In this document: positions 18,401 to 42,799 of the stretch, in pieces
Position numbering within the stretch: the first letter of the stretch is position 1
How the letters are laid out: every line of letters begins with the position of its first letter
From: Azolla caroliniana
Taxonomy: Eukaryota > Plantae > Polypodiophyta
NCBI GenBank assembly: GCA_043228905.1
Contig: JBHGNT010000008.1
Location: forward strand, 124,001 to 188,000
Direction of reading: 5' to 3'
DNA: 64,000 bases
Position numbers and translations under genes: made by a program
Notes under the pieces: generated by a model
Databases searched by the model: none
The model's input: only the letters and a program-made list of their open reading frames with translations
What the model was told of the DNA's origin: nothing

Positions 18401-20060
18401 TCAGGTCGAGAGACATGAAGAAATTACCAAATTAGAGGAGGGAAGTAGAGAAGAGGCCGAGAGTAAATTAAAATGTTCATACCTGGCCCATGTGATATCG
18501 GATTTTAGTGTTCAAATATGCGAATCGAAGCTAACAATGCGAGCTATGTTATGGAAATCAAAAATCAAGATTTCGAAACTCAGGTCGAGAGACATGAAGA
18601 AATTACCAAATTTGAGGAGGGAGTTGAGAAGAGCCCGAGAGTAAATTAAAATGTTCATACCTGGCCCATGTGATATCGGATTTTAGTGTTCCAACATTTG
18701 AATCGAAGGTTACAATGTTAGCTATCATATGGAAGTAAAAAATAAGGATTTTGAAACTCACGTTGAGAGACATGAAGAAATAACCAAATTTGAGGAGGGA
18801 GTTGAGAAGAGCCCGAGAGTAACATGTGATATAGGATTTTAGTGTTCAAACATGCGAATCGAAGCTAACAATGCTAGCTATGATATGGAATTAAAAAATC
18901 AATCTTTTGAAACTCATGTCGAAAGACATGAAGAAATTACCTAATTAGAGGAAGGAGTAGAGAAGAGGCCGAGAGTAAATTAAAATGTTCATAACTGGCC
19001 CATTGAAGATCGGATTTTAGTGTTCAAATAGGCGAATCGAAGCTAACAATGCTACCTATGATATGGAATTAAAAAATCAATCTTTTGAAACTCATGTCGA
19101 AAGACATGAAGAAATTACCTAATTAGAGGAAGGAGTAGAGAAGAGGCCGAGAGTAAATTAAAATGTTTATAACTGGCCCATTGAAGATCGGATTTTAGTG
19201 TTCAAATAGCCGAATCGAAGCTAACAATGCTAGCTATGATATGGCATTAAAAAATCAAGCTTTGGAAACCCACGTCGAGAGACATGAAGAAATTCCAAAA
19301 TTAGAGGAGGGAGTAGAGAAGAGCCCGAGAGTAAATTAAAATGTTCATACCTGGCCCATGTGATATCGGATTTTAGTGTTCAAACATACGAATCGAAGCT
19401 AACAAGTCTAGCTATGATATCGAATTAAAAAATCAAGGTTTTGAAACTCAGGTCGAGAGATATGAAGAAATTACCAAATTAGAGGAGGGAGTAGAGAAGA
19501 GGCCGAGAGTAAATTAAAATGCGAATCGAAGCTAACAATGCTACCTATGATATCGAATACAAAAAATCAATCTTTTGAAACTCATGTCGAAAGACATGAA
19601 GAAATTACCTAATTAGAGGAAGGAGTAGAGAAGAGGCCGAGAGTAAATTAAAATGTTCATAACTGGCCCATTGAAGATCGGATTTTAGTGTTCAAATAGG
19701 CGAATCGAAGCTAACAATGCTAGCTATGATATGGCATTAAAAAATCAAGCTTTTGAAACTCAGGTCGAGAGACATGAAGAAATTACCAAATTTGAGGAGG
19801 TAGTTGAGAAGAGCCCGAGAGTAAATTAAAATGTTCATACCTGGCCCATGTGATATCGGATTTTAGTGTTTAAACATGTGAATCGAAGCTAGCAAAGGTA
19901 CCTATGATATGGAATTGAAAAATCAAGCTTTGGAAACCCACGTCGAGAGACAGGGTTTGAAAATTAGAGGAGGGAGTAGAGAAGAGCCCGAGAGTAAATT
20001 AAAATGTTCATACCTGGCCCATGTGATATCGGATTTTAGTGTTCAAACATACGAATCGAA
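12480..20060 (+). repeat. Dispersed ~2-kb duplication (~12480-14430 and ~18060-20060), offset 5585 then 5625 bp
   Basis: Shared scars GAGTAACATGTG (~13232/~18817), AAAATGCGAATC (~13931/~19516) and GACAGGGTTTG (~14324/~19949); identical 101-aa pseudo-ORF at 12754 and 18339. The offset rises by 40 after a deletion at ~14121 in the first copy. Confidence 0.88.
15660..17090 (+). repeat. Tandem duplication of a 712-bp (4-monomer) unit
   Basis: The private variant TACCCATTTAG occurs at 16111 and 16823; AAATTATAATG and GGACTTGAG variants repeat at the same 712-bp offset. Confidence 0.82.
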
Positions 20061-23000
20061 GCTAACAAGGCTAGCTATGATATGGAATTAAAAAATCAAG
20101 GTTTTGAAACTCAGGTCGAGAGACATGAAGAAATTACCAAATTTGAGGAGGGAGTTGAGTAGAGCCCGAGAGTAAATTAAAATGTTCATACCTGGCCCAT
20201 GTGATATCGGATTTTAGTGTTCGAATATGCGAATCGAAGATAACAATGCGAGCTATGTTATGGAATTCGAAAATCAAGATTTTGAAACTAAGGTCGAAAG
20301 AAATGAAGAAATTTCCAAATTAGAGGAGGGAGTATAGAAGAGCCCGAGAGTAAATTAAAATGTTCATACCTGGCTCATGTGATATCGAATTTTAGTGTTC
20401 AAACATGCGAATCGAAGCTCACAATGCTAGCTATGATATGGAATTAAAAAATCAAGACTTTGAAACTTAGGTCGAGAGACATGAAGAAATTACCAAATTT
20501 GAGGAGGGGGTAGAGAAGAGGCCGAGAGTAAATTAAAATGTTCATACCTGGCCCATGTGATATTGCATCTTAGTCTTCAAACATGCGAATCGAAGCTAAC
20601 AATGCTAGTTATGATATGGCATTAAAAAATCAAGCTTTTGAAACTCAGGTCGAGAGACATGAAGAAATTACCCAATTTGAGGAGGTAGTTGAGAAGAGCC
20701 CGAGAGTAAATTAAAATGTTCATACCTGGCCCATGTGATATCGGATTTTAGTGTTCAAACATACGAATCGAAGCTAACAAGGCTAGCTGTGATATGGAAT
20801 GAAAAAATCAAGCTTTTGAAACTCAGGTCGAGAGACATGAAGAAATTACCAAATTAGAGCAGGCAGTAGAGAAGAGCCCGAGAGTAAATTAAAATGTTCA
20901 TACCTGTCCCATCTGATATCGGATTTTAGTGTTTAAACATGTGAATCAAAGCTAGCAAAGGTACCTATGATATGGAATTAAAAAATCAAGCTTTGGAAAC
21001 CCACGTCGAGAGACATGAAGAAATTCCAAAATTAGAGGAGGGAGTAGAGAAGAGCCCGAGAGTAAATTAAAATGTTCATACCTGGCCCATGTGATATCGG
21101 ATTTTAGTGTTCAAACATACGAATCGAAGCTAACAAGTCTAGCTATGATATGGAATTAAAAAATCAAGGTTTTGAAACTCAGGTCGAGAGACATGAAGAA
21201 ATTACCAAATTAGAGGAGGGAGTAGAGAAGAGGCCGAGAGTAAATTACAATGTTCATACCTGGCCCATGTGATATCGGATTTTAGTGTTCAAACATGGGA
21301 ATCGAAGCTAACAATGCTAGCTATTTTATGGAATTAAAAATTCAAGATTTTAAACTTAGGTCGAGAGACATGAAGAAATTACCAAATTAGAGGAGGGAGT
21401 TGAGAAGAGCCCGAGAGTAAATTAAAATGTTCATACCTGGCCCATGTGATATCGGATTTGAGTGTTCAACCTTACGAATCGAAGCTAACAAGGCTAGCTA
21501 TGATATGGAATTAGAAAATCAAGCTTCTGAAACTCAGGTCGAGAGACATGAAGAAATTACCAAATTAGAAGAGGGAGTAGAGAAGAGGCCGAGAGTAAAT
21601 TAAAATGTTCATACCTGGCCCATGTGATATCGGCTTTTAGTGTTCAAATATGCAAATCGAAGCTAACAATGCGAGCTATGTTATGGAATTGGAAAATCGA
21701 GATTTTGGAACTCAGGTCGAGAGACATGAAGAAATTCCCGAATTAGAGGAGGGAGTAGAGTAGAGCCCGAGAGTAAATTAAAATGTTTAGACTTGGCCAA
21801 TGTAATATCGGATTTTAGTGTTTAAACATTGGAATCGAAGCTAACAACGCAAGCTATGATATGGAATTGAAAAATCAAGATTTTGAAACTCAGGTCGAGA
21901 GACATGAAGAAATTACCCAATTTGAGGAGGTAGTTGAGAAGAGGCCGAGAGTAAATTAAAATGTTCATACCTGGCCCATGTGATATCGGATTTTAGTGTT
22001 CAAACATACGAATCGAAGCTAACAAGGCTAGCTATGCTATGGAATGAAAAAATCAAGATTTTGAAACTCAGGTCGAGAGACATGAAGAAATTACCAAATT
22101 TGAGGAGGGAGTTGAGAAGAGCCCGAGAGTAAATTAAAATGTTCATACCTGTCCCAGGTGATATCGGATTTTCGTGTTTAAACATTTGAATCGAAGCTTA
22201 CAATGTTAGCTATCATATGGAAGTAAAAAATAAGGATTTTGAAGCTCACGTTGAGAGACATGAAGAAATAACCAAATTTGAGGAGGGAGTTGAGAAGAGC
22301 CCAAGTGTAAATTAAAATTTTTAGACCTGGCCCATGTGATATCAGATTTTAGTGTGTAAACATGCGAATCGAAGCTAACAAAGCTAGCTATCATATGGAA
22401 TTAAAAAATCAAGGTTTTGAAACTCACGTCGAGAGACTTGAAGAAATTCCCAAATTAGAGGAGGGAGTTGAGAAGAGCCCGAGAGTAAATTAAAATGTTT
22501 AGACCTGGCCCCTGTGATATCGGATTTTAGTGTATAAACATGCGAATCGAAGCTAACAAAGCTAGCTATCATCTGGAATTAAAAATTCATGATTTTCAAA
22601 ATCAGGTCGAGAGACATGAAGAAATTCCCAAATTAGAGGAGGGAGTTGAGAAGAGCGCGTGAGTAAATTAAAATGTTCATATCTGGCCCATGTAATATCG
22701 GATTTTAGTGTTCAAATATGCGAATCGAAGCTAACAAAGGTACCTATGTTATGGATTTAAAAATCCAAGATTTTGAAACTCAGGTTGAGAGACATGAAGA
22801 CATTCCCAAATTAGAGGAGGGAGTAGAGAGGAGCCCGAGAGTAAATTAAATGTTCATACGTGGCCCATGTGATATCGGATTTTATTGTTCAGCCATGCGA
22901 ATTAAAGCTAACCAAGCTACCTATGATATGGAATTAAAAAATCAAGATTTTGAAACTCAGGTCGAGAGACATGAAGAAATTCCCGAATTAGAGCAGGGAG

Positions 23001-26000
23001 TAGAGAAGAGCCCGAGAGTAAATTAAAATGTTTAGACTTGGCCAATGTGAAATCGGATTTTAGTGTTTAAACATGCGAATGGAAGCTAACAAAGCTACCT
23101 ATGATATGGAATAAAAAATCAAATTTTCAAACTCAGGTCGAGAGACATGAAGAAATTACCCAATTTGAGGAGGGAGTTGAGAAGAGGCCGAGAGTAAATT
23201 AAAATGTTCATACCTGGCCCATGTGATATCGGATTTTAGTGTTCAAACATACGAATCGAAGCTAACAAGGCTAGCTATGATATCGAATTAAAAAATGAAG
23301 GTTTTGAAACTCAGGTCCAGAGACATGAAGAAATTCCCAAATTAGAGGAGGGAGTAGAGAAGAGCCCGAGAGTAAATTAAAATGTTTTGACCTAGCACAT
23401 GTGATATCGGACTTTAGTGTTTAAACATGCGAATCGAAACATGTTTAAACTTTAGTGTTTGCTAGGTATGATATGGAATTAAAAAATCAAGATTTTCAAA
23501 CTCAGGTCGAGAGATATTAAGAAATTACCAAATTTCAGGATAGAGTTGAGAAGAGCGTGTGAGTAAATTAAAATGTTCATACCTGGCCCAAGTAATATAG
23601 GATTTTAGTGTTCAAACATGCGAATCGAAGCTAACAATGCTAGCTATGATATAGAATAAAAATTCAAGATTTTAAAACTTAGGTCGAGAGACATGAAGAA
23701 ATTACCAAATTAGAGGAGGGAGTTGAGAAGAGCCCGAGAGTAAATTAAAATGTTCATACCTGGCCCATGTGATATCGGATCTGAGTGTTCAAACATACGA
23801 ATCGAAGCTAACAAGGCTAGCTATGATATGGAATTAGAAAATCAAGCTTTTGAAACTCAGGTCGAGAGACATGAAGAAATTACCCGATTTGAGGAGGTAG
23901 TTGAGAAGAGCCCGAGAGTAAATTAAAATGTTCATACCTGGCCCATGTGATATCGGATTTGAGTGTTCAAACTTACGAATCGAAGCTAACAAGGCTAGCT
24001 ATAATATGGAATTAGAAAATCAAGCTTTTGAAACTCAGGTCGAGAGACATGAAGAAATTACCCAATTTGAGGAGGTAGTTGAGAAGAGCCCGAGAGTAAA
24101 TTAAAATGTTCATACCTGGCCCATGTGATATCGGATTTGAGTGTTCAAACTTACGAATCGAAGCTAACAAGGCTAGCTATGATATGGAATTAGAAAATCA
24201 AGCTTCTGAAACTCAGGTCGAGAGACATGAAGAAATTACCAAATTAGAGGAGGGAGTAGAGAAGAGGCCGAGAGTAAATTAAAATGTTCATACCTGGCCC
24301 ATGTGATATCGGCTTTTAGTGTTCAAATATGCAAATCGAAGCTAACAATGCGAGCTATGTTATGGAATTCGAAAATCGAGATTTTGGAACTCAGGTCGAG
24401 AGACATGAAAAAATTCCCGAATTAGAGGAGGGAGTAGAGTAGAGCCCGAGAGTAAATTAAAATGTTTAGACTTGGCCAATGTAATATCGGATTTTAGTGT
24501 TTAAACATTGGAATGGAAGCTAATAACGCAAGCTATGATATGGAATTGAAAAATCAAGATTTTGAAACTCAGGTCGAGAGACATGAAGAAATTACCCAAT
24601 ATTAGGAGGTAGTTGAGAAGAGGCCGAGAGTAAATTAAAATTTTCATACCTGGCCCATGTGATATCGGATTTTAGTGTTCAAACATACGAATCGAAGCTA
24701 ACAAGGCTAGCTATGATATGGAATGAAAACATCAAGATTTTGAAACTCAGGTCGAGAGATATGAAGAAATTACCAAATTTGAGGAGGGAGTTGAGAAGAG
24801 CGCATGAGTAAATTAAAATGTTCATACCTGGCCCATCTGATATAGGATTTTAGTGTTCAAACATGCGAATCGAAGCTAACAATGCTACCTATGATATGGA
24901 ATTAAAAAATCAATCTTTTGAAACTCATGTCGAAAGACATGAAGAAATTACCAAATTAGAGGAGGGAGTAGAGAAGAGGCCGAGAGTAAATTAAAATGTT
25001 CATAACGGGCCCATTGAATATCGGATTTTAGTGTTCAAACAGGCGAATCGAAGCTAACAATGCTAGCTATGATATGGAATTAAAAAATCAAAATTTTGAA
25101 ACTCAGGTCGAGAGACATGAAAAAGTTACCAAATTAGAGGAGGTATTGAGAAGAGCCCGAGAGTAAAATAAAATGTTCATACCTGGCCCATGTGATATCG
25201 GATTTGAGTGTTCAAACATACGAATCGAAGCTAACAAGGCTAGCTATGATATGGAATTAAAAAATCAAGGTTTGGAAACTCACGTCGAGAGACATGAAGA
25301 AATTACCAAATTAGAGGAGGGAGTTGAGACGAGCCCGAGAGTAAATTAAAATGTTCATACCTGGCCCATGTGATATCGGATTTTAGTGTTCAAATATGTG
25401 AATCGAAGCTAACAAAGGTACCTTTGATATGGAATTAAAAAACCAAGCTTCTGAAAATCAGGTCGAGAGACATGAACAAATTACCAAATTAGAGGAGGGA
25501 GTTGAGAATAGCGCGTGAGTAAATTAAAATGTTCATACCTGGCCCATCTGATATCGGATTTTAGCGTTCAAATATGCGAATCGAAGCTAGCAAAGCTACC
25601 TATGACATGGAATGAAAAAATCAAGCTTTTGAAACTCAGGTGCAGAGACATGAAGAAATTACCAAATTAGAGCAGGGAGGAGAGAAGAGCCCGAGAGTAA
25701 ATTAAAATGTTTAGACCTGGCCCATGTGATATCGGATTTTAGTGTTCAAATATACGAATCGAGGCTAACAATGCTACCTATGATATGGAATTAAAAAATC
25801 AAGCTTTTGAAACTCAGGTCTAGAGACATGAAGAAATTACCAAATTTGAGGAGGGAGTTGAGAAGAGCCCGAGAGTAAATTAAAATGTTCATACCTGTCC
25901 CATGTCATATCGGATTTTAGTGTTCAAACATTTGAATCGAAGCTTACAATGTTAGCTATGATATGGAAGTAAAAAATAAGGATTTTGAAACTCACGTTGA

Positions 26001-28983
26001 GAGACATAGAAAAATAACCAAATTTGAGGAGGGAGTTGAGAAGAGCCCGAGAGTAAATTAAAATGTTCATACCTGGCCCATGTGATATCGGATTTTAGTG
26101 TTCAAACATGCGAATCGAAGCTAACAACGGTAGCTATGCTATCGAATTAAAAAATCAAGATTTTAAAACTCAGGTCGAGAGACATGAAGAAATTACCAAA
26201 TTAAAGGAGGGAGTTGAGAAGAGCCCGAGAGTAAATTAAAATGTTCATACCTGGCCCATGTGATATCGGATTTTTGTGTTCAAACATGCGAATCGAAGCG
26301 AATAATGCTACCTATGATATGGAATTAAAAAATCAAGCTTTTGAAACTCAGGTCTCGAGACATGAAGAAATTACCAAATTTGAGGAGGGAGTTGAGAAGA
26401 GCCCGAGAGTAAATTAAAATGTTCATACCTGTCCCATGTGATATCGGATTTTAGTGTTCAAACATTTGAATCGAAGCTTACAATGTTAGCTATGATATGG
26501 AAGTAAAAAATAACATAAAGAAATAACCAAATTTGAGGGGGGAGTTGAGAAGAGCCCGAGAGTAAATTAAAATGTTCATACCTGGCCCATGTGATATCGG
26601 ATTTTAGTGTTCAAACATGCGAATCGAAGCTAACAACGGTAGCAATGATATCGAATTAAAAAATCAATATTTTGAAACTCAGGTCGAGAGACATGTAGAA
26701 ATTACCCAATTTGAGGAGGTAGTTGAGAAGAGCCCGAGAGTAAATTAAAATGTTCATACCTGGCCCATGTGATATCGGATTTTAGTGTTCAAACATACGA
26801 ATCGAAGCTAACAAGGCTAGCTGTGATATGGAATGAAAACATCAAGATTTTGAAACTCAGGTCGAGAGACATGAAGAAATGACCAAATTAGAGCAGGGAG
26901 TAGAGAAGAGCCCGAGAGTAAATTAAAATGTTTAGACCTGGCCCATGTGATATCGGATTTTAGTGTTTAAACATGCGAATCGAAACTAGCAAAGCTACCT
27001 ATGATATGGAATTAAAAAATCAAGCTTTGGAAACTCACGTCGAGAGACATGAAGAAATTACCAAATTTGAGGAGGGAGTTGAGACGAGCCCGAGAGTAAA
27101 TTAAAATGTTCATACCTGGCCCATGTGATATCGGCTTTTAGTGTTAAAATATGCGAATCGAAGCTAACAATGCAAGTTATGTTATGGAATTAAAAAATGA
27201 AGATTTTGAAAGTTAGGTCGAGAGACGTGAAGAAATTCCCAAATTAGAGGAAGGAGTAGAGAAGAGCACGAGAGTAAATTAAAATGTTCATACCTGTCCC
27301 ATGTGATATCGGATTTTAGTGTTTAAACATGCGACTCGAAGCTACCAAAGCTACCTATGACATGGAATTAAAAAATCAAGATTTTCAAACTCAGGTTGAG
27401 AGATATTAAGAAATTACCAAATTTGACGAGGGAGTTGAGAAGAGCGCGTGAGTAAATGAAAATGTTCATACCTGGCCCATGTGAGATAGGATTTTACTGT
27501 TCAAAGATGCGAATCGAAGCTAACAATGCTAGCTATGATATGGAAGAAATTACCAAATTAGAGGAGGGAGTAGAGAAGAGGCCGAGAGTAAATTGAAATG
27601 TTCATACCTGGCCCATGTGATATTGCATCTTAGTGTTCAAACATGCGAATCGAAGCTAACAATGCTAGCTATGATATGGCATTAAAAAATCAAGATTTTG
27701 AAATTCAGGTCGAGAGAAATGAAGACATTCCCAAATTTGAGGAGGGAGTATAGAAGAGCTCGAGAGTAAATTAAAATGTTCATACCTGGCCCATGTGATA
27801 TCGGATTTTAGTGTTCAAACATACGAATCGAAGCTAACAAGGCTAGCTATGATATCGAATTAAAAAATCAAGCTCTTGAAACTCACGTCGAGAGACATGA
27901 AGAAATTACCAAATGAGAGGAGGGAGTTGAGAAGAGCCCCAGAGTAAATTAAAATGTTCATACCTGACACATATGATATCGGATTTTAGTGTTCAAATAT
28001 GCGAATCGAAGCTAACAACGCTAGCTATGACATGGAATGAAAAAATCAAGCTTTTGAAACTCAGGTCGAGAGACATGAAGAAATTCCCAAATTAGAGGAG
28101 GGAGTAGATAAGAGCCCGAGAGTAAATTAAAATGTTTAGACCTAGCCCATGTGATATCGGATTTTAGTGTTTAAACATGCGAATCGAAGCTAGCAAAGCT
28201 AGCTATGATATGGAATTAAAAAATCAAGATTTTCAAACTCAGGTCGAGAGATATTAAGAAATTACCAAGTTAGAGGAGCCCGAGAGTAAATTAAAATGTT
28301 CATACCTGGCCCAAGTGATATAGGATTTTAGTGTTCAAACATGCGAATCGAAGCTAACAATGCTAGCTATGATATGGAATTAAAAATTCAAGATTTTGAA
28401 ACTTAGGAGGGAGTAGATAAGAGGCCGAGAGTAAATTAAAATGTTTAGACCTGGCCTGTGTGAGATCGGATTTTAGTGTTTAAATATGCGAATCGAAGCT
28501 AACAATGCGAGCTATATTATGGAATTAAAAAATCAAGATTTTGAAACTCAGGTCGAGAGAAATGAAGAAATTACCAAATTAGAGGAGGGAGTAGAGAAGA
28601 GGCCGAGAGTAAATTAAAATGTTCATACCTAGCCCATGTGATATCGGATTTTAGTGTTCAAATATGAGAATCGAAGCTAACAATGCGAGCTATGTTATGG
28701 AATTCGAAAATCAAGATTTTGAAACTCAGGTCGAGAGACATGAAGAAATTCCCGAGTCAGAGGAGGGAGTAGAGAAGAGCCCGAGAGTAAATTAAAATGT
28801 TTAGACTTGGCCAATGTGATATCGGATTTTAGCGTTTAAACATTGGAATCGAAGCTAACAATGCAAGCTATGATATGGAATTAAAAAATCAAGATTTTGA
28901 AACTCAGGTTGAGAGACATGAAGAAATTACCCAATTTGAGGAGGTAGTTGAGAAGAGCCCGAGAGTAAATTAAAATGTTCATA

Positions 28984-29008
28984 CCCTAAACCCTAAACCC
29001 TAAACCCT
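28984..29008 (-). repeat. Interstitial plant-type telomeric tract (CCCTAAA)3+CCCT at the array inversion junction
   Basis: Sequence reads ttcata-CCCTAAA CCCTAAA CCCTAAA CCCT-gagtttcaaaat. TTTAGGG is the Arabidopsis-type telomere repeat and is absent from the monomer consensus. Confidence 0.93.
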
Positions 29009-32000
29009 GAGTTTCAAAATCTTGATTTTTTAATTCCATATCATAGCTTGCATTGTTAGCTTCAATTCCAATGTTTAAACACTAAAATCCGATATCACAT
29101 TGGCCAAGTCTAAACATTTTAATTTACTCTCGGGCTCTTCTCTACTCCCTCCTCTGACTCGGGAATTTCTTCATATCTCTCGACCTGAGTTTCAAAATCT
29201 TGATTTTCGAATTCCATAACATAGCTCGCATTGTTAGCTTCGATTCTCGGCCTTTAACACTAAAATCCGATATCACATGGGCTAGGTATGAACATTTTAA
29301 TTTACTCTCGGCCTCTTCTCTACTCCCTCCTCTAATTTGGTAATTGTTTCATGTCTCTCGACCTGAGTTTCAAAAGCTTGATTTTTTCATTCCATATCAT
29401 AGGTAACCTTGTTAGCTTCGATTCGTATGTTTGAACACTAAAATCCGATATCACATGGGCCAGGTATGAACATTTTAATTTACTCTCGGGCTCTTCTCAA
29501 CTACCTCCTCAAATTGGGTAATTTCTACATGTCTCTCGACCTGAGTTTCAAAATCTTGATTTTTTAATTCCATAATATAGCTCGCATTGTTAGCTTCGAT
29601 TCGCATATTTGAACACTAAAATCCGATATAACATGGGCCAGGTATGAACATTTTAATTTACTCTCGGGCTCTTCTCAACTCCCTCCTCAAATTTGGTTAT
29701 TTCATTATGTCTCTCAACGTGAGTTTCAAAATCCTTATTTTTTACTTCCATTCAAATATTTGAACACTAAAATCCGATATCACATGGGACAGGTATGAAC
29801 ATTTTAATTTACCCTCGGGCTGTTCTCAACTCCCTCCTCAAATTTGGTAATTTCTTCATGTCTCGAGACCTGAGTTTCAAAAGCTTGATTTTTTAATTCC
29901 ATATCATAGCTATCGTTGTTAGCTTCCATTTGCATGTTTGAACACTAAAATCCGATATCACATGGGCCAGGTATGAACATTTTAATTTACTCTCGGGCTC
30001 TTCTCAACTCCCTCCTCAAATTTGGTTATTTCATTATGTCTCTCAACATGAGTTTCAAAATCCTTATTTTTTACTTCCATATCATAGCTAACATTGTAAG
30101 CTTCGATTCAAATGTTTGAACACTAAAATCCGATATCACATGGGACAGGTATGAACATTTTAATTTACTCTCGGGCTCTTCTCAACTCCCTCCTCAAATT
30201 TGGTAATTTCTTCATGTCTCTCGACCTGAGTTTCAAAAGCTTGATTTTTTAATTCCATATCATAGGTAGCATTGTTCTCTTCGATTCGCATGTTTGAACA
30301 CAAAAATCCGATATCACATGGGCCAGGTATGAACATTTTAATTTACTCTCGGGCTCTTCTCAACTCCCTCCTTTAATTTGGTAATTTCTTCATGTCTCTC
30401 GACCTGAGTTTTAAAATCTTGATTTTTTAATTCGATAGCATAGCTACCGTTGTTAGCTTCGATTCGCATGTTTGAACACTAAAATCCGATATCACATGGG
30501 CCAGGTATGAACATTTTAATTTACTCTCGGGCTCTTCTCAACTCCCTCCTCAAATTTGGTTATTTTTCTATGTCTCTCAACGTGAGTTTCAAAATCCTTA
30601 TTTTTTACTTCCATATCATAGCTAACATTGTAAGCTTCGATTCAAATGTTTGAACACTAAAACCGATATGACATGGGACAGGTATGAACATTTTAATTTA
30701 CTCTCGGGCTCTTCTCAACTCCCTCCTCAAATTTGGTAATTTCTTCATGTCTCTAGACCTGAGTTTCAAAAGCTTGATTTTTTAATTCCATATCATAGGT
30801 AGCATTGTTAGCCTCGATTCGCATATTTGAACACTAAAATCCGATATCACATGGGCCAGGTCTAAACATTTTAATTTACTCTCGGGCTCTTCTCTACTCC
30901 CTGCTCTAATTTGGTAATTTCTTCATGTCTCTGCACCTGAGTTTCAAAAGCTTGATTTTTTCATTCCATGTCATAGGTAGCTTTGCTAGCTTCGATTCGC
31001 ATATTTGAACGCTAAAATCCGATATCAGATGGGCCAGGTATGAACATTTTAATTTACTCACGCGCTATTCTCAACTCCCTCCTCTAATTTGGTAATTTGT
31101 TCATGTCTCTCGACCTGATTTTCAGAAGCTTGATTTTTTAATTTCATATCAAAGGTACCTTTGTTAGCTTCGATTCACATATTTGAACACTAAAATCCGA
31201 TATCACATGGGCCAGGTATGAACATTTTAATTTACTCTCGGGCTCGTCTCAACTCCCTCCTCTAATTTGGTAATTTCTTCATGTCTCTCGACCTGAGTTT
31301 CAAAACCTTGACTTTTTAATTCCATATCATAGCTAGCCTTGTTAGCTTTGATTCGTATGTTTGAACACTCAAATCCGATATCACATGGGCCAGCTATGAA
31401 CATTTTAATTTACTCTCGGGCTCTTCTCAATCCCTCCTCTAATTTGGTAACTTCTTCATGTCTCTCGACCTGAGTTTCAAAATTTTGATTTTTTAATACC
31501 ATATCATAGCTAGCATTGTTAGCTTTGATTCGCCTGTTTGAACACTAAAATCCGATATTCAATGGGCCCGTTATGAACATTTTAATTTACTCTCGGCCTC
31601 TTCTCTACTCCCTCCTCTAATTTGGTAATTTCTTCATGTCTTTCGACATGAGTTTCAAAAGATTGATTTTTTAATTCCATATCATAGGTAGCATTGTTAG
31701 CTTCAATTCGCATGTTTGAACACTAAAATCCTATATCAGATGGGCCAGGTATGAACATTTTAATTTACTCATGCGCTCTTCTCAACTCCCTCCTCAAATT
31801 TGGTAATTTTTTCATATCTCTTGACCTGAGTTTCAAAATCATGATTCTTTAATTCCATATTATAGCTAGCATTGTTAGCTTCAATTCGCATCTTTGAACA
31901 CTAAAATCCTATATCACATGGGCCAGGTTTGAACATTTTAATTTACTCAAATTTGGTAATTTCTTCATGTCTCTCGACCTGAGTTTCAAAATCTTGATTT

Positions 32001-34544
32001 TTTAATTCCATATCATACCTAGCATTGTTAGCTTCGATTCGCATGTTTGAACACTCAAATCCGATATCACATGGGCCAGGTATGAACATTTTAATTTACT
32101 CTCGGCCTCTTCTCAATCCCTCCTCTAATTTGGTAATTTCTACATGTCTCTCGACCCGAGTTTGAAAATCTTGATTTTTTAATTCCATATCATAGCTAGC
32201 ATTGTTAGCTTCGATTCGCCTATTTGAACACTAAAATCCAATATCCAATGGGCCAGTTATGAACATTTTAATTTACTCTCGGCCTCTTCACTACTCCCTC
32301 CTCTAATTTGGTAATTTCTTCATGTCTTTCGACATGAGTTTCCAAAGATTGATTTTTTATTTCCATATCATAGCTAGCATTGTTAGCTTCAATTCGCATG
32401 TTTGAACACTAAAATCCTATATCACATGGGCCAGCTATGAACATTTTAATTTACTCATGCGCTCTTCTCAACTCCCTCCTCAAATTTGGAAATTTGTTCA
32501 TATCTCTCGACCTGAGTATTAAAATCTTGATTTTTTAATTCCATATGATAGCTAGCTTTGTTAGCTTCGATTCGCATGTTTACACACTACAATCTGATAT
32601 CACATGGGCCAAGTCTAAACATTTTAATTTACTCTCGGGCTCTTATCTACTCCCTCCTAAGTTTCAAAATCTCGGGCTCATCTCAACTCCCTCCTCAAAT
32701 TTGGTTATTTCTTCATGTCTCTCAACGTGAGTTTCAAAATCCTTATTTCTTCATGGCTCTCGACCTGAGTTTCAAAAGCTTCATTTTTTCATTCCATATC
32801 ATAGCTAGCCTTGTTAGCTTCGATTCGTATGTTTGAACACTAAAATCCGATATCACATGGGCCAGGTATGAACATTTTAATTTACTCTCGGGCTCTTCTC
32901 AACTACCTCCTCAAATTGGGTAATTTCTTCATGTCTCTCAACCTGAGTTTCAAAATCTTGATTTTTTAATTCCATATCATAGCTTGCATTGTTAGCTTCG
33001 ATTCCAATGTTTAAACACTAAAATCCGATATCACATTGGCCAAGTCTAAACATTTTAATTTACTCTTGGGCGCTTCTCTACTCCGTCCTCTAACTCGGGA
33101 ATTTCTTCATGTGTCTCGACCTGAGTTTCAAAATCTTGATTTTCGAATTCCATAACATAGCTCGCATTGTTAGCTTCGATTCTCTTATTTGAACACTAAA
33201 ATCCGATATCACATAGGCCAGGTATGAACATTTTAATTTACTCTCGGCCTCTTCTCTACTCCCTCCTCTAATTTGGTAATTTTTTCATGTCTCTCGACTT
33301 GAGTGTCAAAACCTTGATTTTTTAATTCCATATCATAGCTAGCCTTGTTAGCTTCGATTCGTATGTTTGAACACTAAAATCCGATATCACATGGGCCAGG
33401 TATGAACATTTTAATTTACTGTCGGGCTCTTCTATACTCCCTCAAATTTGGGAATGTCTTCATGTCTCTCGACCTGAGTTTCAAAATCTTCATTTTTTAA
33501 TTCCATATCATAGATAGCTTTGTTAGCTTCAGTTCGCATATTTGAACACTAAAATCCGATATCACATGGGCCAGGTATGAACATTTTAATTTACTCACGC
33601 GCTCTTCTCAACTCCCTGCTCTAATATGGTAATTTCTTCATGTCTATCGACCTGATTTTCAGAAGCTTGATTTTTTAATTCCATATCATAGGTACCTTTG
33701 TTAGCTTCGATTCGCATATTTGAACACTAAAATCCGATATCACATGGGCCAGGTATGAACATTTTAATTTACTCTCGGGCTCTTCTCAACTCCCTCCTCA
33801 AATTTGGTAATTTCTTCATATCTCTCGACCTGAGTTTCAAAATCATGATTGTTTAATTCCATATTATAGCTAGCATTGTTAGCTTCAATTCGCATGTTTG
33901 AACACTAAAATCCTATATCACATGGGCCAGGTCTGAACATTTTAATTTACTCACGCGCTCTTCTCAACTCCCTACTCAAATTTGGTAATTTCTTCATGTC
34001 TCTCGACCTGAGTTTGAAAATCTTTATTTTTTCATTCCATATCATACCTAGCATTGTTAGCTTCGATTCGCATGTTTGAACACTCAAATCCGATATCACA
34101 TGGGCCAGGTATGAACATTTTAATTTACTCTCGGCCTCTTCTCAATCCCTCCTCTAATTTGGTAATTTCTTCATGTCTCTCCACCTGAGTTTCAAAATCT
34201 TGATTTTTTAATTCAATATTATAGCTAGCATTGTTAGCTTCGATTCGCCTGTTTGAACACTAAAATCCAATATCCAATGGGCCAGTTATGAACATTTTAA
34301 TTTACTCTCGGCCTCTTCTCTACTCCCTCCTCTAATTTGGTAATTTCTTGATGTCTTTCGACATGAGTTTCCAAAGATTGATTTCTTAATTCCATATCAT
34401 AGGTAGCATTGTTAGCTTCGATTCGCATGTTTGAACACTAAAATCCTATATCACATGGGCCAGCTATGAACATTTTAATTTACTGATGCGCTCTTCTCAA
34501 CTCCCTCCTCAAATTTGGAAATTTGTTCATATCTCTCGACCTGC

Positions 34545-34559
34545 GTTTAGGGTTTAGGG
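34545..34559 (+). repeat. Interstitial telomeric tract G(TTTAGGG)2 inside the array
   Basis: Sequence reads cgacctgc-G TTTAGGG TTTAGGG-aaatttgctcatg. The paralogous monomer context at ~32490-32520 and ~45805-45840 lacks it. Confidence 0.82.
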
Positions 34560-36459
34560 AAATTTGCTCATGCCTCTCAACGTGAGCTTCAAAATCCTTA
34601 TTTTTTACTTTCATATGATAGCTAACATTGTAAGCTTCGATTCAAATGTTTGAACACGAAAATCCGATATCACCTGGGACAGGTATGAACATTTTAATTT
34701 ACTCTCGGGCTCTTCTCAACTCCCTCCTCAAATTTGGTAATTTCTACATGTCTCTCGACCTGAGTTTCAAAATCTTGATGTTTTCATTCCATATCATAGC
34801 TAGCCTTGTTAGCTTCGATTCGTATGTTTGAACACTAAAATCCGATATCACATGGGCCAGGTATGAACATTTTAATTTACTCTCGGCCTCTTCTCAACTA
34901 CCTCCTCAAATTGGGTAATTTTTTCATGTCTCTCGACCTGAGTTTCAAAATCTTGATTTTTCAATTCCATATCATAGCTTGCGTTGTTAGCTTCGATTCC
35001 AATATTTAAACACTAAAATCTGATATTACATTGGCCAAGTCTAAACATTTTAATTTACTCTCGGGCTCTACTCTACTCCCTCCTCTAATTCGGGAATTTC
35101 TTCATGTCTCTCGATCTGAGTTCCAAAATCTCGATTTTCGAATTCCATAACATAGCTCGCATTGTTAGCTTCGATTTGCATATTTGAACACTAAAAGCCG
35201 ATATCACATGGGCCAGGTATGAACATTTTAATTTACTCTCGGCCTCTTCTCTACTCCCTCCTCTAATTTGGTAATTTCTTCATGTCTCTCGACCTGAGTT
35301 TCAGGAGCTTGATTTTCTAATTCCATATCATAGCTAGCATTGTTAGCTTCGATTCGTAAGTTTGAACACTCAAATCCGATATCACATGGGCCAGGAATGA
35401 ACATTTTAATTTACTCTCGGGCTCTTCTCAACTACCTCCTCAAATTGGGTAATTTCTTCATGTCTCTCGACCTGAGTTTCAGAAGCTTGATTTTCTAATT
35501 CCATATCATAGCTAGCCTTGTTAGCTTCGATTCGTATGTTTGAACACTCAAATCTGATATCACATGGGCCAGGTATGAACATTTTAATTTACTCTCGGGC
35601 TCTTCTCAACTCCCTCCTCTAATTTGGTAATTTCTTCATGACTCTCGACCTAAGTTTTAAAATCTTGAATTTTTAATTCCATATTATAGCTAGCATTGTT
35701 AGCTTCGATTCGCATGTTTGAACACTAAAATCCTATATTACTTGGGCCAGATATGAACATTTTAATTTACTCACACGCTTTTCTCAACTCTATCCTTAAA
35801 TTTGGTAATTTCTTAATATCTCTCGACCTGAGTTTGAAAATCTTGATTTTTTAATTCCATATCATAGCTAGCAAACAATAAAGTTTAAACATGTTTCGAT
35901 TCGCATGTTTAAACACTAAAGTCCGATATCACATGTGCTAGGTCTAAACATTTTAATTTACTCTCGGGGTCTTCTCTACTCCCTCCTCTAATTTGGGAAT
36001 TTCTTCATGTCTCTGGACCTGAGTTTCAAAACCTTTATTTTTTAATTCGATATCATAGCTAGCCTTGTTAGCTTCGATTCGTATGTTTGAACACTAAAAT
36101 CCGATATCACATGGGCCAGGTATGAACATTTTAATTTACTCTCGGCCTCTTCTCAACTCCCTCCTCAAATTGGGTAATTTCTTCATGTCTCTCGACCTGA
36201 GTTTGAAATTTTGATTTTTTATTCCATATCATAGGTAGCTTTGTTAGCTTCCATTCGCATGTTTAAACACTCAAATCCGATTTCACATTGGCCAAGTCTA
36301 AACATTTTAATTTACTCTCGGGCTCTTCTCTACTCCCTGCTCTAATTCGGGAATTTCTTCATGTCTCTCGACCTGAGTTTCAAAATCTTGATTTTTTAAT
36401 TCCATATCATAGGTAGCTTGGTTAGCTTTAATTCGCATGGCTGAACAATAAAATCCGAT

Positions 36460-39400
36460 ATCACATGGGCCACGTATGAACATTTAATTTACTCTCGGGC
36501 TCCTCTCTACTCCCTCCTCTAATTTGGGAATGTCTTCATGTCTCTCAACCTGAGTTTCAAAATCTTGGATTTTTAAATCCATAACATAGGTACCTTTGTT
36601 AGCTTCAATTCGCATATTTGAACACTAAAATCCGATATTACATGGGCCAGGTATGAACATTTTAATTTACTCACGCGCTCTTCTCAACTCCCTCCTCTAA
36701 TTTGGGAATTTCTTCATGTCTCTCGACCTGATTTTGGAAATCATGATTTTTTAATTCCAGATGATAGCTAGCTTTGTTAGCTTCGATTCGCATGTTTATA
36801 CACTAAAATCCGATATCACAGGGGCCAGGTCTAAACATTTTAATTTACTCTCGGGCTCTTCTCAACTCCCTCCTCTAATTTGGGAATTTCTTCATGTCTC
36901 TCGACGTGAGTTTCAAAACCTTGATTTTTTAATTCCATATGATAGCTAGCTTTGTTAGCTTCGATTCGCATGTTTACACACTAAAATCTGATATCACATG
37001 GGCCAGGTCTAAACATTTTAATTTACACTTGGGCTCTTCTCAACTCCCTCCTCAAATTTGGTTATTTCTTCATGTCTCTCAACGTGAGCTTCAAAATCCT
37101 TATTTTTTACTTCCATATGATAGCTAACATTCTAAGCTTCGATTCAAATGTTTGAACACGAAAATCCAATATCACCTGGGACAGGTATGAACATTTTAAT
37201 TTACTCTCGGGCTCTTCTCAACTCCCTCCTCAAATTTGGTAATTTCTTCATGTCTCTCGACCTGAGTTTCAAAATCTTGATTTTTTCATTCCATATCATA
37301 GCTAGCCTTGTTAGCTTCGATTCGTATGTTTGAACACTAAAATCCGATATCACATGGGCCAGGTATGAACATTTTAATTTACTCTCGGCCTCTTCTCAAC
37401 TACCTCCTCAAATTGGGTAATTTCTTCATGTCTCTCGACCTGAGTTTCAAAATCTTGATTTTTCAATTCCATATCATAGCTTGCGTTGTTAGCTTCGATT
37501 CCAATGTTTAAACACTAAAATCCGATATTACATTGGCCAAGTCTAAACATTTTAATTTACTCTCGGGCTCTTATCTACTCCCTCCTCTAATTCGGGAATT
37601 TCTTCATGTCTCTCGACCTGAGTTCCAAAATCTCGATTTTCGAATTCCATAACATAGCTCGCATTGTTAGCTTCGATTTGCATATTTGAACACTAAAAGC
37701 CGATATCACATGGGCCAGGTATGAACATTTTAATTTACTCTCGGCCTCTTCTCTACTCCCTCCTCTAATTTGGTAATTTCTTCATGTCTCTCGACCTGAG
37801 TTTCAGAAGCTTGATTTTCTAATTCCATATCATAGCTAGCCTTGTTAGCTTCGATTCGTAAGTTTGAACACTCAAATCCGATATCACATGGGCCAGGTAT
37901 GAATATTTTAATTTACTCTCGGGCTCTTCTCAACTCCCTCCTCTAATTTGGTAATTTCTTCATGTCTCTCGACCTAAGTTTTAAAATCTTGAATTTTTAA
38001 TTCCATATCATAGCTAGCATTGTTAGCTTCGATTCCCATGTTTGAACACTAAAATCCGATATCACATGGGCCAGGTATGAATATTGTAATTTACTCTCGG
38101 CCTCTTCTCTACTCCCTCCTCTAATTTGGTAATTTCTTCATGTCTCTCGACCTGAGTTTCAAAACCTTGATTTTTTAATTCCATATCATAGCTAGACTTG
38201 TTAGCTTCGATTCGTATGTTTGAACACTAAAATCCGATATCACATGGGCCAGGTATGAACATTTTAATTTACTCTCGGGCTCTTCTCTATTCCCTCCTCT
38301 AATTTTGGAATTTCTTCATGTCTCTCGACCTCAGTTTGAAAATCTTGATTTTTTAATTCCATATTATAGCTAGCATTGTTAGCTTCGATTCGCATATTTG
38401 AACACTAAAATCCTATATCACATGGGCCAGGTATGAACATTTTAATTTACTCACGCGCTCTTCTCAACTCCCTCCTCAAATTTTGTAATTTCTTCATGTC
38501 TCTCGACCTGAGTTTGAAAATCTTGATTTTTTATTCCATATCATAGGTAGCTTTGTTAGCTTCCATTCGCATGTTTAAACACTCAAATCCGATATCACAT
38601 TGGGAAGTCTAAACATTTTAATTTACTCTCGAGCTCTTCTCTACTCCCTCCTCTAATTTGGGAATTTCTTCATGTCTCTCGACCTGACTTTCAAAACCTA
38701 GATTTTTTAATTCTATATCATAGCTAGCCTTGTTAGCTTCGATTCGTATGTTTGAACACTAAAATCTGATATCACATGGGCCACGTATGAACATTTAATT
38801 TACTCTCGGGCTCCTCTCTACTCCCTCCTCTAATTTGGGAATGTCTTCATGTCTCTCAACCTGAGTTTCAAAATCTTGGATTTTTAAATCCATAACATAG
38901 GTACCTTTGTTAGCTTCGATTCTCATATTTGAACACTAAAATCCGATATTACATGGGTCAGGTATGAACATTTTAATTTACTCACGCACTCTTCTCAACT
39001 CCCTCCTCTAATTTGGGAATTTCTTCATGTCTCTCGACCTGATTTTGGAAATCATGATTTTTTAATTCCAGATGATAGCTAGCTTTGTTAGCTTCGATTC
39101 GCATGTTTATACACTAAAATCCGATATCACAGGGGCCAGGTCTAAACATTTTAATTTACTCTCGGGCTCTTCTCAACTCCCTCCTCTAATTTGGGAATTT
39201 CTTCATGTCTCTCGACGTGAGTTTCAAAACCTTGATTTTTTAATTCCATATGATAGCTAGCTTTGTTAGCTTCGATTCGCATGTTTACACACTAAAATCT
39301 GATATCACATGGGCCAGGTCTAAACATTTTAATTTACACTTGGGCTCTTCTCAACTCCCTCCTCAAATTTGGTTATTTCTTCATGTCTCTCAACGTGAGC

Positions 39401-41090
39401 TTCAAAATCCTTATTTTTTACTTCCATATGATAGCTAACATTCTAAGCTTCGATTCAAATGTTTGAACACGAAAATCCGATATCACCTGGGACAGGTATG
39501 AACATTTTAATTTACTCTCGGGCTCTTCTCAACTCCCTCCTCAAATTTGGTAATTTCTTCATGTCTCTCGACCTGAGTTTCAAAATCTTGATTTTTTCAT
39601 TCCATATCATAGCTAGCCTTGTTAGCTTCGATTCGTATGCTTGAACACTAAAATCCGATATCACATGGGCCAGGTATGAACATTTTAATTTACTCTCGGC
39701 CTCTTCTCAACTACCTCCTCAAATTGGGTAATTTCTTCATGTCTCTCGACCTGAGTTTCAAAATCTTGATTTTTCAATTCCATATCATAGCTTGCGTTGT
39801 TAGCTTCGATTCAATTGTTTAAACACTAAAATCCGATATTACATTGGCCAAGTCTAAACATTTTAATTTACTCTCGGGATCTACTCTACTCCCTCCTCTA
39901 ATTCGGGAATTTCTTCATGTCTCTCGACCTGAGTTCCAAAATCTCGATTTTCGAATTCCATAACATAGCTCGCATTGTTAGCTTCGATTTGCATATTTGA
40001 ACACTAAAAGCCGATATCACATGGGCCAGGTATGAACATTTTAATTTACTCTCGGCCTCTTCTCTACTCCCTCCTCTAATTTGGTAATTTCTTCATGTCT
40101 CTCGACCTGAGTTTCAGAAGCTTGATTTTCTAATTCCATATCATAGCTAGCCTTGTTAGCTTCGATTCGTAAGTTTGAACACTCAAATCCGATATCACAT
40201 GGGCCAGGTATGAATATTTTAATTTACTCTCGGGCTCTTCTCAACTCCCTCCTCTAATTTGGTAATTTCTTCATGTCTCTCGACCTAAGTTTTAAAATCT
40301 TGAATTTTTAATTCCATATCATAGCTAGCCTTGTTAGCTTCGATTCCCATGTTTGAACACTAAAATCCGATATCACATGGGCCAGGTATGAATATTTTAA
40401 TTTACTCTCGGGCTCTTCTCAACTCCCTCCTCAAATTTGGTTATTTTTTCATGTCTCTTGACGTGAGTTTCAAAAGCTTGATTTTTTAATTCCATATCAT
40501 AGCTAGACTTGTTAGCTTCGATTCGTATGTTTGAACACTAAAATCCGATATCACATGGGCCAGGTATGAACATTTTAATTTACTCTCGGGCTCTTCTCTA
40601 TTCCCTCCTCTAATTTTGGAATTTCTTCATGTCTCTCGACCTCAGTTTGAAAATCTTGATTTTTTAATTCCATATTATAGCTAGCATTGTTAGCTTCGAT
40701 TCGCATGTCTGAACACTAAAATCCTATATCACATGGGCCAGGTATGAACATTTTAATTTACTCACGCGCTCTTCTCAACTCCCTCCTCAAATTTTGTAAT
40801 TTCTTCATGTCTCTCGACCTGACTTTGAAAATCTTGATTTTTTATTCCATATCATAGGTAGCTTTGTTAGCTTCCATTCGCATGTTTAAACACTCAAATC
40901 CGATATCACATTGGGAAGTCTAAACATTTTAATTTACTCTCGAGCTCTTCTCTACTCCCTCCTGTAATTTGGGAATTTCTTCATGTCTCTCGACCTGACT
41001 TTCAAAACCTAGATTTTTTAATTCTATATCATAGCTAGCCTTGTTAGCTTCGATTCGTATGTTTGAACACTAAAATCTGATATCACATGG
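36460..41090 (-). repeat. Tandem duplication of a 2311-bp (13-monomer) unit
   Basis: ORFs 36761/39072, 36939/39250 and 37148/39459 are offset by 2311; markers CACGTATGAACATTTAAT (36471/38782) and TGGGAAGTCT (38601/40912) agree. Confidence 0.9.
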
Positions 41091-42799
41091 GCCAGGTATG
41101 AACATTTTAATTTACTCTCGGGCTCTTCTCAACTCCCTCCTCAAATTTGGTAATTTCTTCATGTCTCTCGAGGTGAGTTTCAAAAGCTTGATTTTTTAAT
41201 TCCATATCATAGGTAGCTTTGCTAGCTTCGATTCGCATATTTGAACACTAAAATCCGATATCACATGGGCCAGGTATGAACATTTTAATTTACTCTCGGC
41301 CTCTTCTCTACTCCCTCCTCTAATTTGGTAATTTCTTCATGTCTCTCGACCTGAGTTTCAAAACATTGATTTTTTAATTCCATATCATAGCTAGCATTGT
41401 TAGCTTCGATTCCCTTGCTTGAACACTAAAATCCGATATCACATGGGCTAGGTATGAACATTTTAATTTACTCTCGGGCTCTTCTCTACTCCCTCCTCTA
41501 ATTTTGGAATTTCTTTATGTCTCTCGACTTGAGTTTGAAAATCTTGATTTTTTAATTCCATATCATAGCTAGCATTGTTAGATTCGATTAGCCTGTTTGA
41601 ACACTAAAATCCGATATTCAATGGGCCAGTTATGAACATTTTAATTTACTCTCGGCCTCTTCTCTACTCCTTCCTCTAATTTGGTAATTTCTTCATGTCT
41701 TTCGACATGAGTTTCAAAAGATTGATTTTTTAACTCCATATCATAGGTAGCATTGTTAGCTTTGATTCGCATGTTTGAACACTAAAATCCTATATCACAT
41801 GGGCCAGGTATGAACATTTTAATTTACTCATGCGCTCTTCTCAATCCCTCCTTTAATTTGGTAATTTTGTTCATGTCTCTTGACATGAGTTCCAAAATCT
41901 TGATTTTCTAATTCCATATCATAGCTACCGTTGTCAGCTTCCATTCGCATATTTGAACACTAAAATCCGATATAACATGGGCCAGGTATGAACATTTTAA
42001 TTTACTCTCGGGCTCTTCTCAACTCCCTCCTCAAATTTGGTTATTTCATTATGTCTCTCAACGTGAGTTTCAAAATCCTTATTTTTTACTTCCATTCAAA
42101 TATTTGAACACTAAAATCCGATATCACATGGGACAGGTATGAACATTTTAATTTCTTCATGTCTCTCGACATGAGTTTCAAAAGCTTGATTTTTTAATTC
42201 CATATCATAGCTATCGTTGTTAGCTTCCATTCGCATGTTTGAACACTAAAATCCGATATGACATGGGACAGGTATGAACATTTTAATTTACTCTCGGGCT
42301 CTTCTCAACTCCCTCCTCAAATTTGGTAATTTCTTCATGTCTCTAGACCTGAGTTTCAAAAGCTTGATTTTTTAATTCCATATCATAGGTAGCATTGTTA
42401 GCCTCGATTCGCATATTTGAACACTAAAATCCGATATCACATGGGCCAGGTCTAAACATTTTAATTTACTCTCGGGCTCTTCTCTACTCCCTGCTCTAAT
42501 TTGGTAATTTCTTCATGTCTCTGCACCTGAGTTTCAAAAGCTTGATTTTTTCATTCCATGTCATAGGTAGCTTTGCTAGCTTCGATTCGCATATTTGAAC
42601 GCTAAAATCCGATATCAGATGGGCCAGGTATGAACATTTTAATTTACTCACGCGCTATTCTCAACTCCCTCCTCTAATTTGGTAATTTGTTCATGTCTCT
42701 CGACCTGATTTTCAGAAGCTTGATTTTTTAATTCCATATTAAAGGTACCTTTGTTAGCTTCGATTCACATATTTGAACACTAAAATCCGATATCACATG

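What the first reader, a model, noticed from the sequence alone, without database searches (positions are those of the whole stretch)
28984..34559. 5.58-kb satellite segment capped by outward-facing telomere repeats at both ends, embedded in the array
Seen: (CCCTAAA)3 at the left end (28984-29004) and (TTTAGGG)2 at the right end (34546-34559). These are the only multi-unit telomeric tracts I found in 64 kb. Established: CCCTAAA on the left and TTTAGGG on the right is the polarity of a linear chromosome, and telomerase can add repeats de novo at double-strand breaks. Inference: a satellite fragment was excised or linearised (for example from satellite eccDNA), healed at both ends by telomerase, and re-ligated into the array at the inversion point. 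That would be a telomerase-assisted route for satellite turnover. Two independent break-repair events with telomeric filler are the alternative.
Basis: partly seen in the sequence, partly recalled or inferred. Interest (0 to 1): 0.85.

Follow-up and report, generated by a model that had tools for sequence, protein, structure and literature searches.

The report
Telomere scars at satellite repair junctions
Two short runs of telomere repeats sit at junctions inside a plant repeat array, one at the tip of a mirror-image duplication and one where most of a repeat unit was likely lost; they are likely scars of DNA-break repair involving telomerase, and the DNA between them likely never left its place.

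Summary
Both tracts are real: perfect telomeric runs of 26 nt (28983-29008) and 15 nt (34545-34559) in a 178-bp plant satellite. The excised, capped and re-inserted fragment is not supported. The left tract lies at the apex of an old inverted duplication. The segment's first 335 bp mirror the left flank (327 of 335 identical), and the mirror runs on for about 8-9 kb at 1.3% divergence, across the right tract. The right tract is a same-orientation junction. Paralogous monomers give the native order Y-M-Z, and here most of M is replaced by 14 nt of telomeric filler plus a 9-nt local copy. So the segment most likely kept its native right neighbour. Best reading: two short interstitial telomeric insertions made during break repair, probably by telomerase (3 nt in register at the left junction); the left one records a fusion of sister copies. 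One clustered event that briefly capped both ends in place remains possible (about 30%), because both breaks fall at nearly the same monomer position. The junctions could not be confirmed with reads. This is a new member of a known kind, useful as a sequence-resolved plant example.

The parts
1..28985 (-). Left arm: 178-bp satellite, opposite orientation to the right arm (157 monomer units, L0-L156 counted outward)
28909..28985 (-). 77-nt unpaired stub of the left arm: tail of the W-type monomer that natively precedes an X-type monomer; with the insert it forms the 97-nt loop of the palindrome
   Evidence: 0 differences from the tail of monomer R180; 97 nt between arms
28986..29005 (-). 20-nt telomeric insert (perfect run 28983-29008), G-rich on the minus strand; 3-nt overlap with native satellite at each side
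28574..28908 (-). Innermost left mirror arm (monomers L0-L1)
   Evidence: 327 of 335 identical to 29006-29340
29006..29340 (+). Innermost right mirror arm (R157-R158); holds a cluster of 5 changes at 29249-29255
29006..34543 (+). The segment between the tracts: 33 monomer units (R157-R189) of native array, starting at monomer position 1 and ending at position 4
24736..26513 (-). Mirror copy of 30064-31840 (inside the segment)
   Evidence: 1756 matches, 21 mismatches, 1 gap column
21006..24801 (-). Mirror copy of 34709-38328 (right of the right tract), directly adjoining the previous block
   Evidence: 3567 matches, 51 mismatches, 180 gap columns
31825..34758 (+). 18 monomer units (R173-R190), including the right tract, that have no collinear mirror; likely lost from the left arm by an in-phase deletion
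34544..34557 (+). 14-nt insert (one non-telomeric base plus 13 telomeric; perfect run 34545-34559), G-rich on the plus strand
34558..34566 (+). 9-nt copy of 34517-34525, 41 nt upstream; shares 2 nt with the telomeric run
   Evidence: the motif occurs 4 times in the window: 32488, 34517, 34558, 45805
34567..34758 (+). Remaining tail of the lost M-type monomer, followed by the Z-type monomer R190
34759..64000 (+). Rest of the right arm, same orientation as the segment

Best explanation
The two tracts are short telomeric inserts at junctions in a native satellite array, likely left by two separate double-strand-break repairs in which telomerase likely added 2-3 repeats to one end before joining, and the 5.54-kb segment between them likely never moved. 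Left junction. Shown: it is the apex of an inverted duplication whose two arms stop 77 nt apart, with the G-rich strand on the shorter arm's 3' end. Inferred: two sister copies broke at nearly the same place, one end was extended from an AGG 3' end by 20 nt, and it fused to the sister end through 3 nt of overlap, creating the strand switch; the arms then diverged by 1.3% and lost or gained whole monomers. Right junction. Shown: same orientation on both sides, net gain of 41 bp, telomeric insert plus a 9-nt local copy. Inferred: a break in monomer M was resected, extended by two repeats and rejoined to its own neighbour by microhomology-mediated end joining.
For: Mirror at the apex: arms 28500-28908 and 29006-29414, 95% complementary, 97-nt loop. 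L0-L1 is the closest two-monomer match to R157-R158 in the window (distance 11, next 15), and only 103 of 30,732 left-right two-monomer pairs are that close. Collinear chain outward from the apex: 47 pairs, score 210.6, against 16 pairs, score 54.6 in the opposite order; 30 pairs lie near the apex and the score falls as windows slide away. The chain pairs L13-L21 with R164-R172 and then L22-L42 with R191-R210, so it crosses the right tract. Native order at the right junction: 2 of 2 other Y-type monomers are followed by an M-type, 3 of 3 other Z-type monomers are preceded by one, and the five M markers occur together in just those 5 of 355 monomers. The segment is no outlier: mean nearest-neighbour distance 3.77 against 3.11 +/- 1.01, with 21% of 319 same-size blocks as high. 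Telomerase fit: 3 nt in register at the left priming end, which 20 of 178 positions on that strand would offer; wheat healing sites show 2-4 nt (PMC12094224 passage). Both inserts can be read as ending at the 5' boundary of the Arabidopsis template given in PMC11406999. In-phase deletions of 1-18 units are routine in Arabidopsis centromeres (10.1101/2025.06.02.657473 section 7).
Against: Both tracts face outward from the same piece (1 in 4 by chance). They lie 5.5 kb apart (chance 0.17 for two points in 64 kb). Both breaks fall at monomer positions 1 and 4 (about 1 in 20 by my arithmetic), and other indel breakpoints are not enriched there (3 of 48 within 5 nt, 3.0 expected). Together these favour one linked event. 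The right insert starts with a non-telomeric base, so its register is not clean. No intact Y-M-Z triplet exists in the window, and M copies after Y differ from M copies before Z by 10-11 bases or more, so the deletion may be longer than one monomer. L2-L10 have no close mirror. Where the inserts end is ambiguous by 2-3 nt. This plant's telomerase template is unknown.
Confidence: 0.47

Rival explanations
1. One clustered event in place: a chromatid broke twice, 5.54 kb apart, and its sister broke 77 nt further out. Telomerase extended both ends of the freed piece, which rejoined its own right neighbour and fused to the sister on the left. The piece was briefly capped at both ends but did not move.
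For: Outward polarity, 5.5-kb spacing and the shared monomer phase (positions 1 and 4) without a general hotspot. Ages are compatible: mirror arms differ by 1.3%, and monomers R189-R193 around the right tract differ from their closest paralogs by 1-3 of 178 bases. One horse locus has two telomeric stretches made in a single complex event (PMC7215372 passages).
Against: It needs three breaks and two telomerase events at once. A contig of another sample seems to join telomere repeats to the satellite at the same monomer position 1 (table 5c), so a site preference could explain the shared phase without linkage. The left-arm region that would date the right tract is missing.
Confidence: 0.3
2. No telomerase at the break: an error-prone repair polymerase copied telomeric DNA or RNA as filler during template switching. 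In this reading the left arm's 3' end copied a telomeric G-strand and then folded back on itself.
For: A 9-nt local copy at the right junction. A cluster of 5 changes 240 nt from the apex that resembles a nearby motif. A jump over L2-L10 just beyond it. PMC7215372 section 12 names telomeric RNA as an alternative source.
Against: The 3-nt register at the left priming end. The asymmetry (telomere on the shorter arm's 3' end) is what a telomerase-extended sister end predicts. The filler is pure canonical repeat both times.
Confidence: 0.14
3. One reading: a satellite fragment or linearised circle from elsewhere was capped at both ends and ligated into the array at the inversion point.
For: Outward polarity. 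The piece begins and ends at nearly the same monomer position, as a circle opened once would.
Against: The left flank is the piece's mirror image, the right flank follows native order, and the mirror copy links the interior to the right flank. Y is followed by M, not by an X-type start, in 2 of 2 paralogs, so the two ends were not native neighbours on a circle.
Confidence: 0.04
4. Assembly or read artefact: a fold-back chimeric read or a mis-join produced the palindrome and the tracts.
For: Palindromes in satellite arrays are error-prone (own knowledge). No read support could be obtained.
Against: The arms differ by 1.3%, with derived changes on both sides (27 left, 36 right, 4 both, in 29 pairs), and by kb-scale in-phase indels. 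A chimeric read would give near-identical arms.
Confidence: 0.03
5. Local slippage: a point mutation made one telomeric motif in the monomer and slippage expanded it.
For: The monomer has a site one substitution away from a telomeric motif, realised once at 56717-56725. Such single motifs are common in Arabidopsis (10.64898/2026.05.10.723265).
Against: Neither tract lies at that site (monomer positions about 73-80). Both sit exactly on rearrangement junctions. The same preprint finds multiple motifs by point mutation negligible.
Confidence: 0.02

Closest known systems
Short interstitial telomeric sequences inserted at double-strand breaks in horse, primates and rodents (PMC7215372; passages and section 12 read)
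   Same: A few canonical repeats appear in one step at a break, with flanking deletion, small additions, inversions or inverted duplications, and nucleotides in register at the 3' end.
   Different: Plant heptamer; the target is a tandem satellite; the empty site is inferred from paralogous monomers rather than orthologous loci; the inverted duplication is many kb, not tens to hundreds of bp.
Sister-chromatid fusion / breakage-fusion-bridge junctions (PMC2847243 passages; PMC12094224 passages)
   Same: Imperfect inverted repeat, asymmetric ends, 1-12 nt of microhomology, telomere remnant on one side.
   Different: Here the junction lies inside a satellite array, is old (1.3% arm divergence) and inherited, and the repeats look newly added to a broken satellite end rather than left over from an eroded telomere.
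De novo telomere healing of broken plant centromeres (10.64898/2026.07.24.740321 passages; PMC12581906 passages)
   Same: Telomere repeats are added directly to broken centromeric DNA, with a sharp boundary.
   Different: Those ends became full kb-long telomeres; here addition stopped after 2-3 repeats and the end was joined.
CenTel mosaic satellites of Arabidopsis (10.64898/2026.05.10.723265; whole main text read; supplements not seen)
   Same: Telomeric repeats inside a 178-bp satellite; the paper names telomerase-mediated healing of breaks as a presumed route to multi-repeat clusters.
   Different: No periodic 500-600-bp mosaic unit, no 180-bp telomeric islands, and the two tracts have opposite polarity relative to the monomer. 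At most these are seeds.

Membership tests
Short interstitial telomeric sequence (break-repair insertion) | A few canonical repeats at an internal site | tested here: met
   26-nt and 15-nt perfect runs, 29 kb from either window end
Short interstitial telomeric sequence (break-repair insertion) | Absent from the empty site, appearing in one step | tested here: met
   By paralogs only: no other of the 355 monomer units has a run over 9 nt
Short interstitial telomeric sequence (break-repair insertion) | Orthologous empty locus in a relative | not testable with these tools
   No genome held; public contigs over the satellite are short
Short interstitial telomeric sequence (break-repair insertion) | End-joining changes at the site (deletion, addition, duplication, inversion) | tested here: met
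   Deletion plus 9-nt copy on the right; inverted duplication on the left
Short interstitial telomeric sequence (break-repair insertion) | [quoted passage not shown] | tested here: inconclusive
   Left 3 nt (20 of 178 sites would give this); right interrupted by one base
Sister-chromatid fusion / fold-back junction | Imperfect inverted repeat centred on the junction | tested here: met
Sister-chromatid fusion / fold-back junction | Asymmetric ends, telomere on one side, short microhomology | tested here: met
   77-nt stub, 20-nt insert, 3-nt overlap
Sister-chromatid fusion / fold-back junction | Dicentric intermediate and a second, return junction | not testable with these tools
   The inverted orientation runs to both window ends; no genome held
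Telomere-capped fragment or eccDNA re-inserted | Tracts face outward | tested here: met
Telomere-capped fragment or eccDNA re-inserted | Segment out of register with both flanks | tested here: not met
Telomere-capped fragment or eccDNA re-inserted | The two ends were native neighbours (opened circle) | tested here: not met
   Y is followed by M in 2 of 2 paralogs
Telomere-capped fragment or eccDNA re-inserted | Free capped molecules or circles in raw reads | not testable with these tools
   All 12 runs offered were contigs
CenTel mosaic satellite | Periodic 500-600-bp units with about 180-bp telomeric islands | tested here: not met
   2 tracts in 355 monomer units
CenTel mosaic satellite | Fixed orientation of telomeric repeat to satellite | tested here: not met
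   Opposite polarities relative to the right-arm monomer

The most novel reading that the evidence does not exclude
Strand switches in plant satellite arrays are inherited sister-fusion scars in which telomerase acts on the broken end first. This monomer has a preferred telomerase-priming site, and here one clustered event capped both ends of a 5.54-kb piece in place. Aborted telomere healing would then be a routine maker of satellite inversions and of the multi-repeat seeds from which centromere-telomere mosaic satellites grow.
Probability: 0.25. Interest if true: 0.68.

Novelty: new member of a known kind. Interest (0 to 1): 0.38.

Why it matters
How satellite arrays acquire strand switches, and how multi-unit telomeric clusters first arise inside them, are open questions. 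The 2026 CenTel preprint says point mutation cannot make such clusters and presumes telomerase healing of breaks. This window gives two base-resolved junctions of that kind in another plant and a simple genome-wide test: look for telomeric filler and mirror symmetry at every strand switch. It does not show a route by which satellite blocks move.

Tried and rejected
Whole-genome scan: no genome is held. Read support: 10 of 12 listed runs hold part of 28500-35000, none half of it (best 0.30). Four runs were laid (shares 0.30, 0.24, 0.21, 0.14); all are contigs of other samples. No listed contig bridged either junction, but the tables were cut, so this shows nothing either way. One run had no cover over the left tract's interior and the others had low summed depth there; the tool says this is no copy number, so I drew no density from it. 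Metagenome scans for the left junction and for a satellite core motif found 0 matches each. Naming the satellite: a motif search of papers found 0. My early searches assumed Arabidopsis CEN178; from memory this monomer is not CEN178, which no call tested, so Arabidopsis papers serve as analogies only. Hotspot idea for monomer positions 1-4: other indel breakpoints are not enriched (3 of 48, 3.0 expected; automatic alignments, some noisy, the right junction itself included). A first test of whether the segment is foreign (9.54, 6% of blocks) was inflated by a placeholder value for very short monomers and was redone on monomers of 130 or more aligned bases, 31 of the segment's 33. The 29 pairs are the near-apex chain without L11-R159 and L25-R194, plus L1-R158. 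Fold-back by the telomerase-extended end itself: rejected, because it would leave the left arm shorter, and it is 77 nt longer. Earlier findings of the scan: nothing relevant. Heacock 2004 (PMC419913) is not held; only its title was seen in a reference list. PMC11712536 passages gave nothing on telomeric filler.
Full report
Observation. The window is one array of a 178-bp satellite, with monomers 93.8% identical to their consensus. GC and AT skew change sign once, in the bin 28001-30000. The perfect runs are 26 nt (28983-29008) and 15 nt (34545-34559), and the next longest is 9 nt. Chance expectations are 2e-10 and 9e-4. The heptamer type and the array point to a plant (own knowledge); the species and satellite were not identified.

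Left junction. The satellite changes strand here. The first 335 bp to the right are the reverse complement of 28574-28908 (327 of 335 identical), with a 97-nt loop made of a 77-nt native stub and the 20-nt insert. This pair is the closest two-monomer match in the window (11 differences, next 15), and 103 of 30,732 left-right pairs are as close. Beyond a gap (L2-L10 have no close partner) the mirror continues. 24736-26513 mirrors 30064-31840 (21 mismatches in 1777 aligned bases), and 21006-24801 mirrors 34709-38328 (51 mismatches in 3618). A collinear chain outward from the apex holds 47 pairs (score 210.6) against 16 (54.6) in the opposite order. In 29 selected mirror pairs the arms differ by 1.3%, with 27 derived changes on the left and 36 on the right, so the palindrome is old and not a chimeric read. 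Borrowing Arabidopsis centromere rates of 2.3-4.7e-8 per base per generation gives roughly 1-3 x 10^5 generations; this is only an order of magnitude. Read 5' to 3' towards the apex, the right arm ends in AGG followed by the G-rich insert, and the left arm ends 77 nt further out without telomere; they overlap by 3 nt. This is the anatomy of an asymmetric sister fusion (PMC2847243 passages). That it arose so is inference.

Right junction. Orientation is the same on both sides, and the monomer is 219 bp, 41 more than usual. After the first 4 bases of the next monomer come one non-telomeric base, 13 telomeric bases, a 9-nt copy of sequence 41 nt upstream and the tail of an M-type monomer. Both other Y-type monomers are followed by an M-type, and all three other Z-type monomers are preceded by one. 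The five M markers occur together in exactly those 5 of 355 monomers. Monomer R254 is M-like in its first half and X-like in its second, and is followed by the type that follows X. This fits an ancestral order Y-M-Z-W-X, the order seen at R189-R192 with M replaced. No intact Y-M-Z triplet is present, so the size of the deletion is inferred.

Did the segment move? The mirror copy on the left arm joins the partners of R164-R172 directly to those of R191-R210. The adjacencies on both sides of the missing 18 units are shared with other right-arm copies (R172-R173 with 3 copies, R190-R191 with 3), so the left arm probably lost them by an in-phase deletion. Such deletions of 1-18 units are routine in Arabidopsis. 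The segment's monomers have close relatives outside it, as other blocks do (3.77 against 3.11 +/- 1.01). Nothing indicates an imported fragment, and the two ends were not native neighbours, as an opened circle would need.

One event or two? For one event: outward polarity (1 in 4), spacing (0.17) and breaks at monomer positions 1 and 4 (about 1 in 20), with no general hotspot there. Ages are compatible. For two events: a single event needs three breaks; palindromes are fragile near the apex (own knowledge); and other samples seem to have their own satellite-telomere joints. Run X1 has a contig joining position 34362, monomer position 1, to the tract start (depth 766.7, table 5c), and run X9 has one joining the tract end to 28965 (depth 94.8, table 5c). 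The kind of joint is not printed in those tables; I read both as same-strand, and they are single contigs that I could not inspect. I put two events at 0.47 and one clustered event in place at 0.30.

Telomerase or copied filler? The left priming end has 3 nt in register, which 20 of 178 positions on that strand would give; wheat healing sites have 2-4 nt. Both inserts can be read as stopping at the 5' boundary of the Arabidopsis template, but the boundary is ambiguous and this plant's template is unknown. The right insert's first base breaks the register. The 9-nt copy and the cluster of 5 changes at 29249-29255 point to error-prone synthesis, so copied filler keeps 0.14. Slippage from a point-mutated motif is excluded by position.

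Comparison and novelty. The junctions match short interstitial telomeric insertions at breaks (PMC7215372) and sister-fusion junctions. Telomere addition to broken plant centromeres is documented. They are not CenTel satellites, but they look like the telomerase-made seeds that 10.64898/2026.05.10.723265 presumes. My ten paper searches listed no report of telomeric filler at the apex of a plant satellite strand switch. I judged most hits from the listing only, the library lacks most subscription journals, and bioRxiv supplements were not seen, so this is weak evidence of novelty.

Verdict. These are real break-repair scars in a native array, a new member of a known kind, interest 0.38. The junctions remain unconfirmed by reads.

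Noticed in passing
window 56717-56725: A single telomeric motif made by one substitution at a monomer site that is one base away from it, like the point-mutation motifs described in Arabidopsis CEN4 and CEN5.
   Followed up: partly
window 29249-29255: Cluster of 5 changes in monomer R158 that resembles a motif about 60 nt further on in the monomer; possibly a micro template switch 240 nt from the apex.
   Followed up: partly
window 26862-28552: Nine left-arm monomer units (L2-L10) next to the apex have no close relative on the right arm (6-13 differences to the best match). L2 shares a 33-bp deletion junction with R177 at 32511.
   Followed up: partly
window 42783-45422 and 1-2793: Very recent tandem duplications (864-bp and 1409-bp periods, under 0.1% divergence), beside older ones at about 1% such as the 2311-bp and 5585-bp periods. 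The 5585-bp period on the left arm is close to the segment's length, apparently by coincidence.
   Followed up: partly
window 32511-32763: Three truncated units in a row (145, 70 and 38 bp) inside the segment: a small complex rearrangement without telomeric filler.
   Followed up: no
runs X1 and X9 laid on window 28983-29008: Contigs of other samples, one of a different organism code, appear to join telomeric repeats to this satellite at other junctions (table 5c, depth 766.7; table 5c, depth 94.8); possibly amplified satellite-telomere units.
   Followed up: partly
whole window: Many indels do not keep the 178-bp phase (34 units listed with lengths far from 178 or 356), whereas all 56 large indels in Arabidopsis mutation-accumulation lines kept it.
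   Followed up: no
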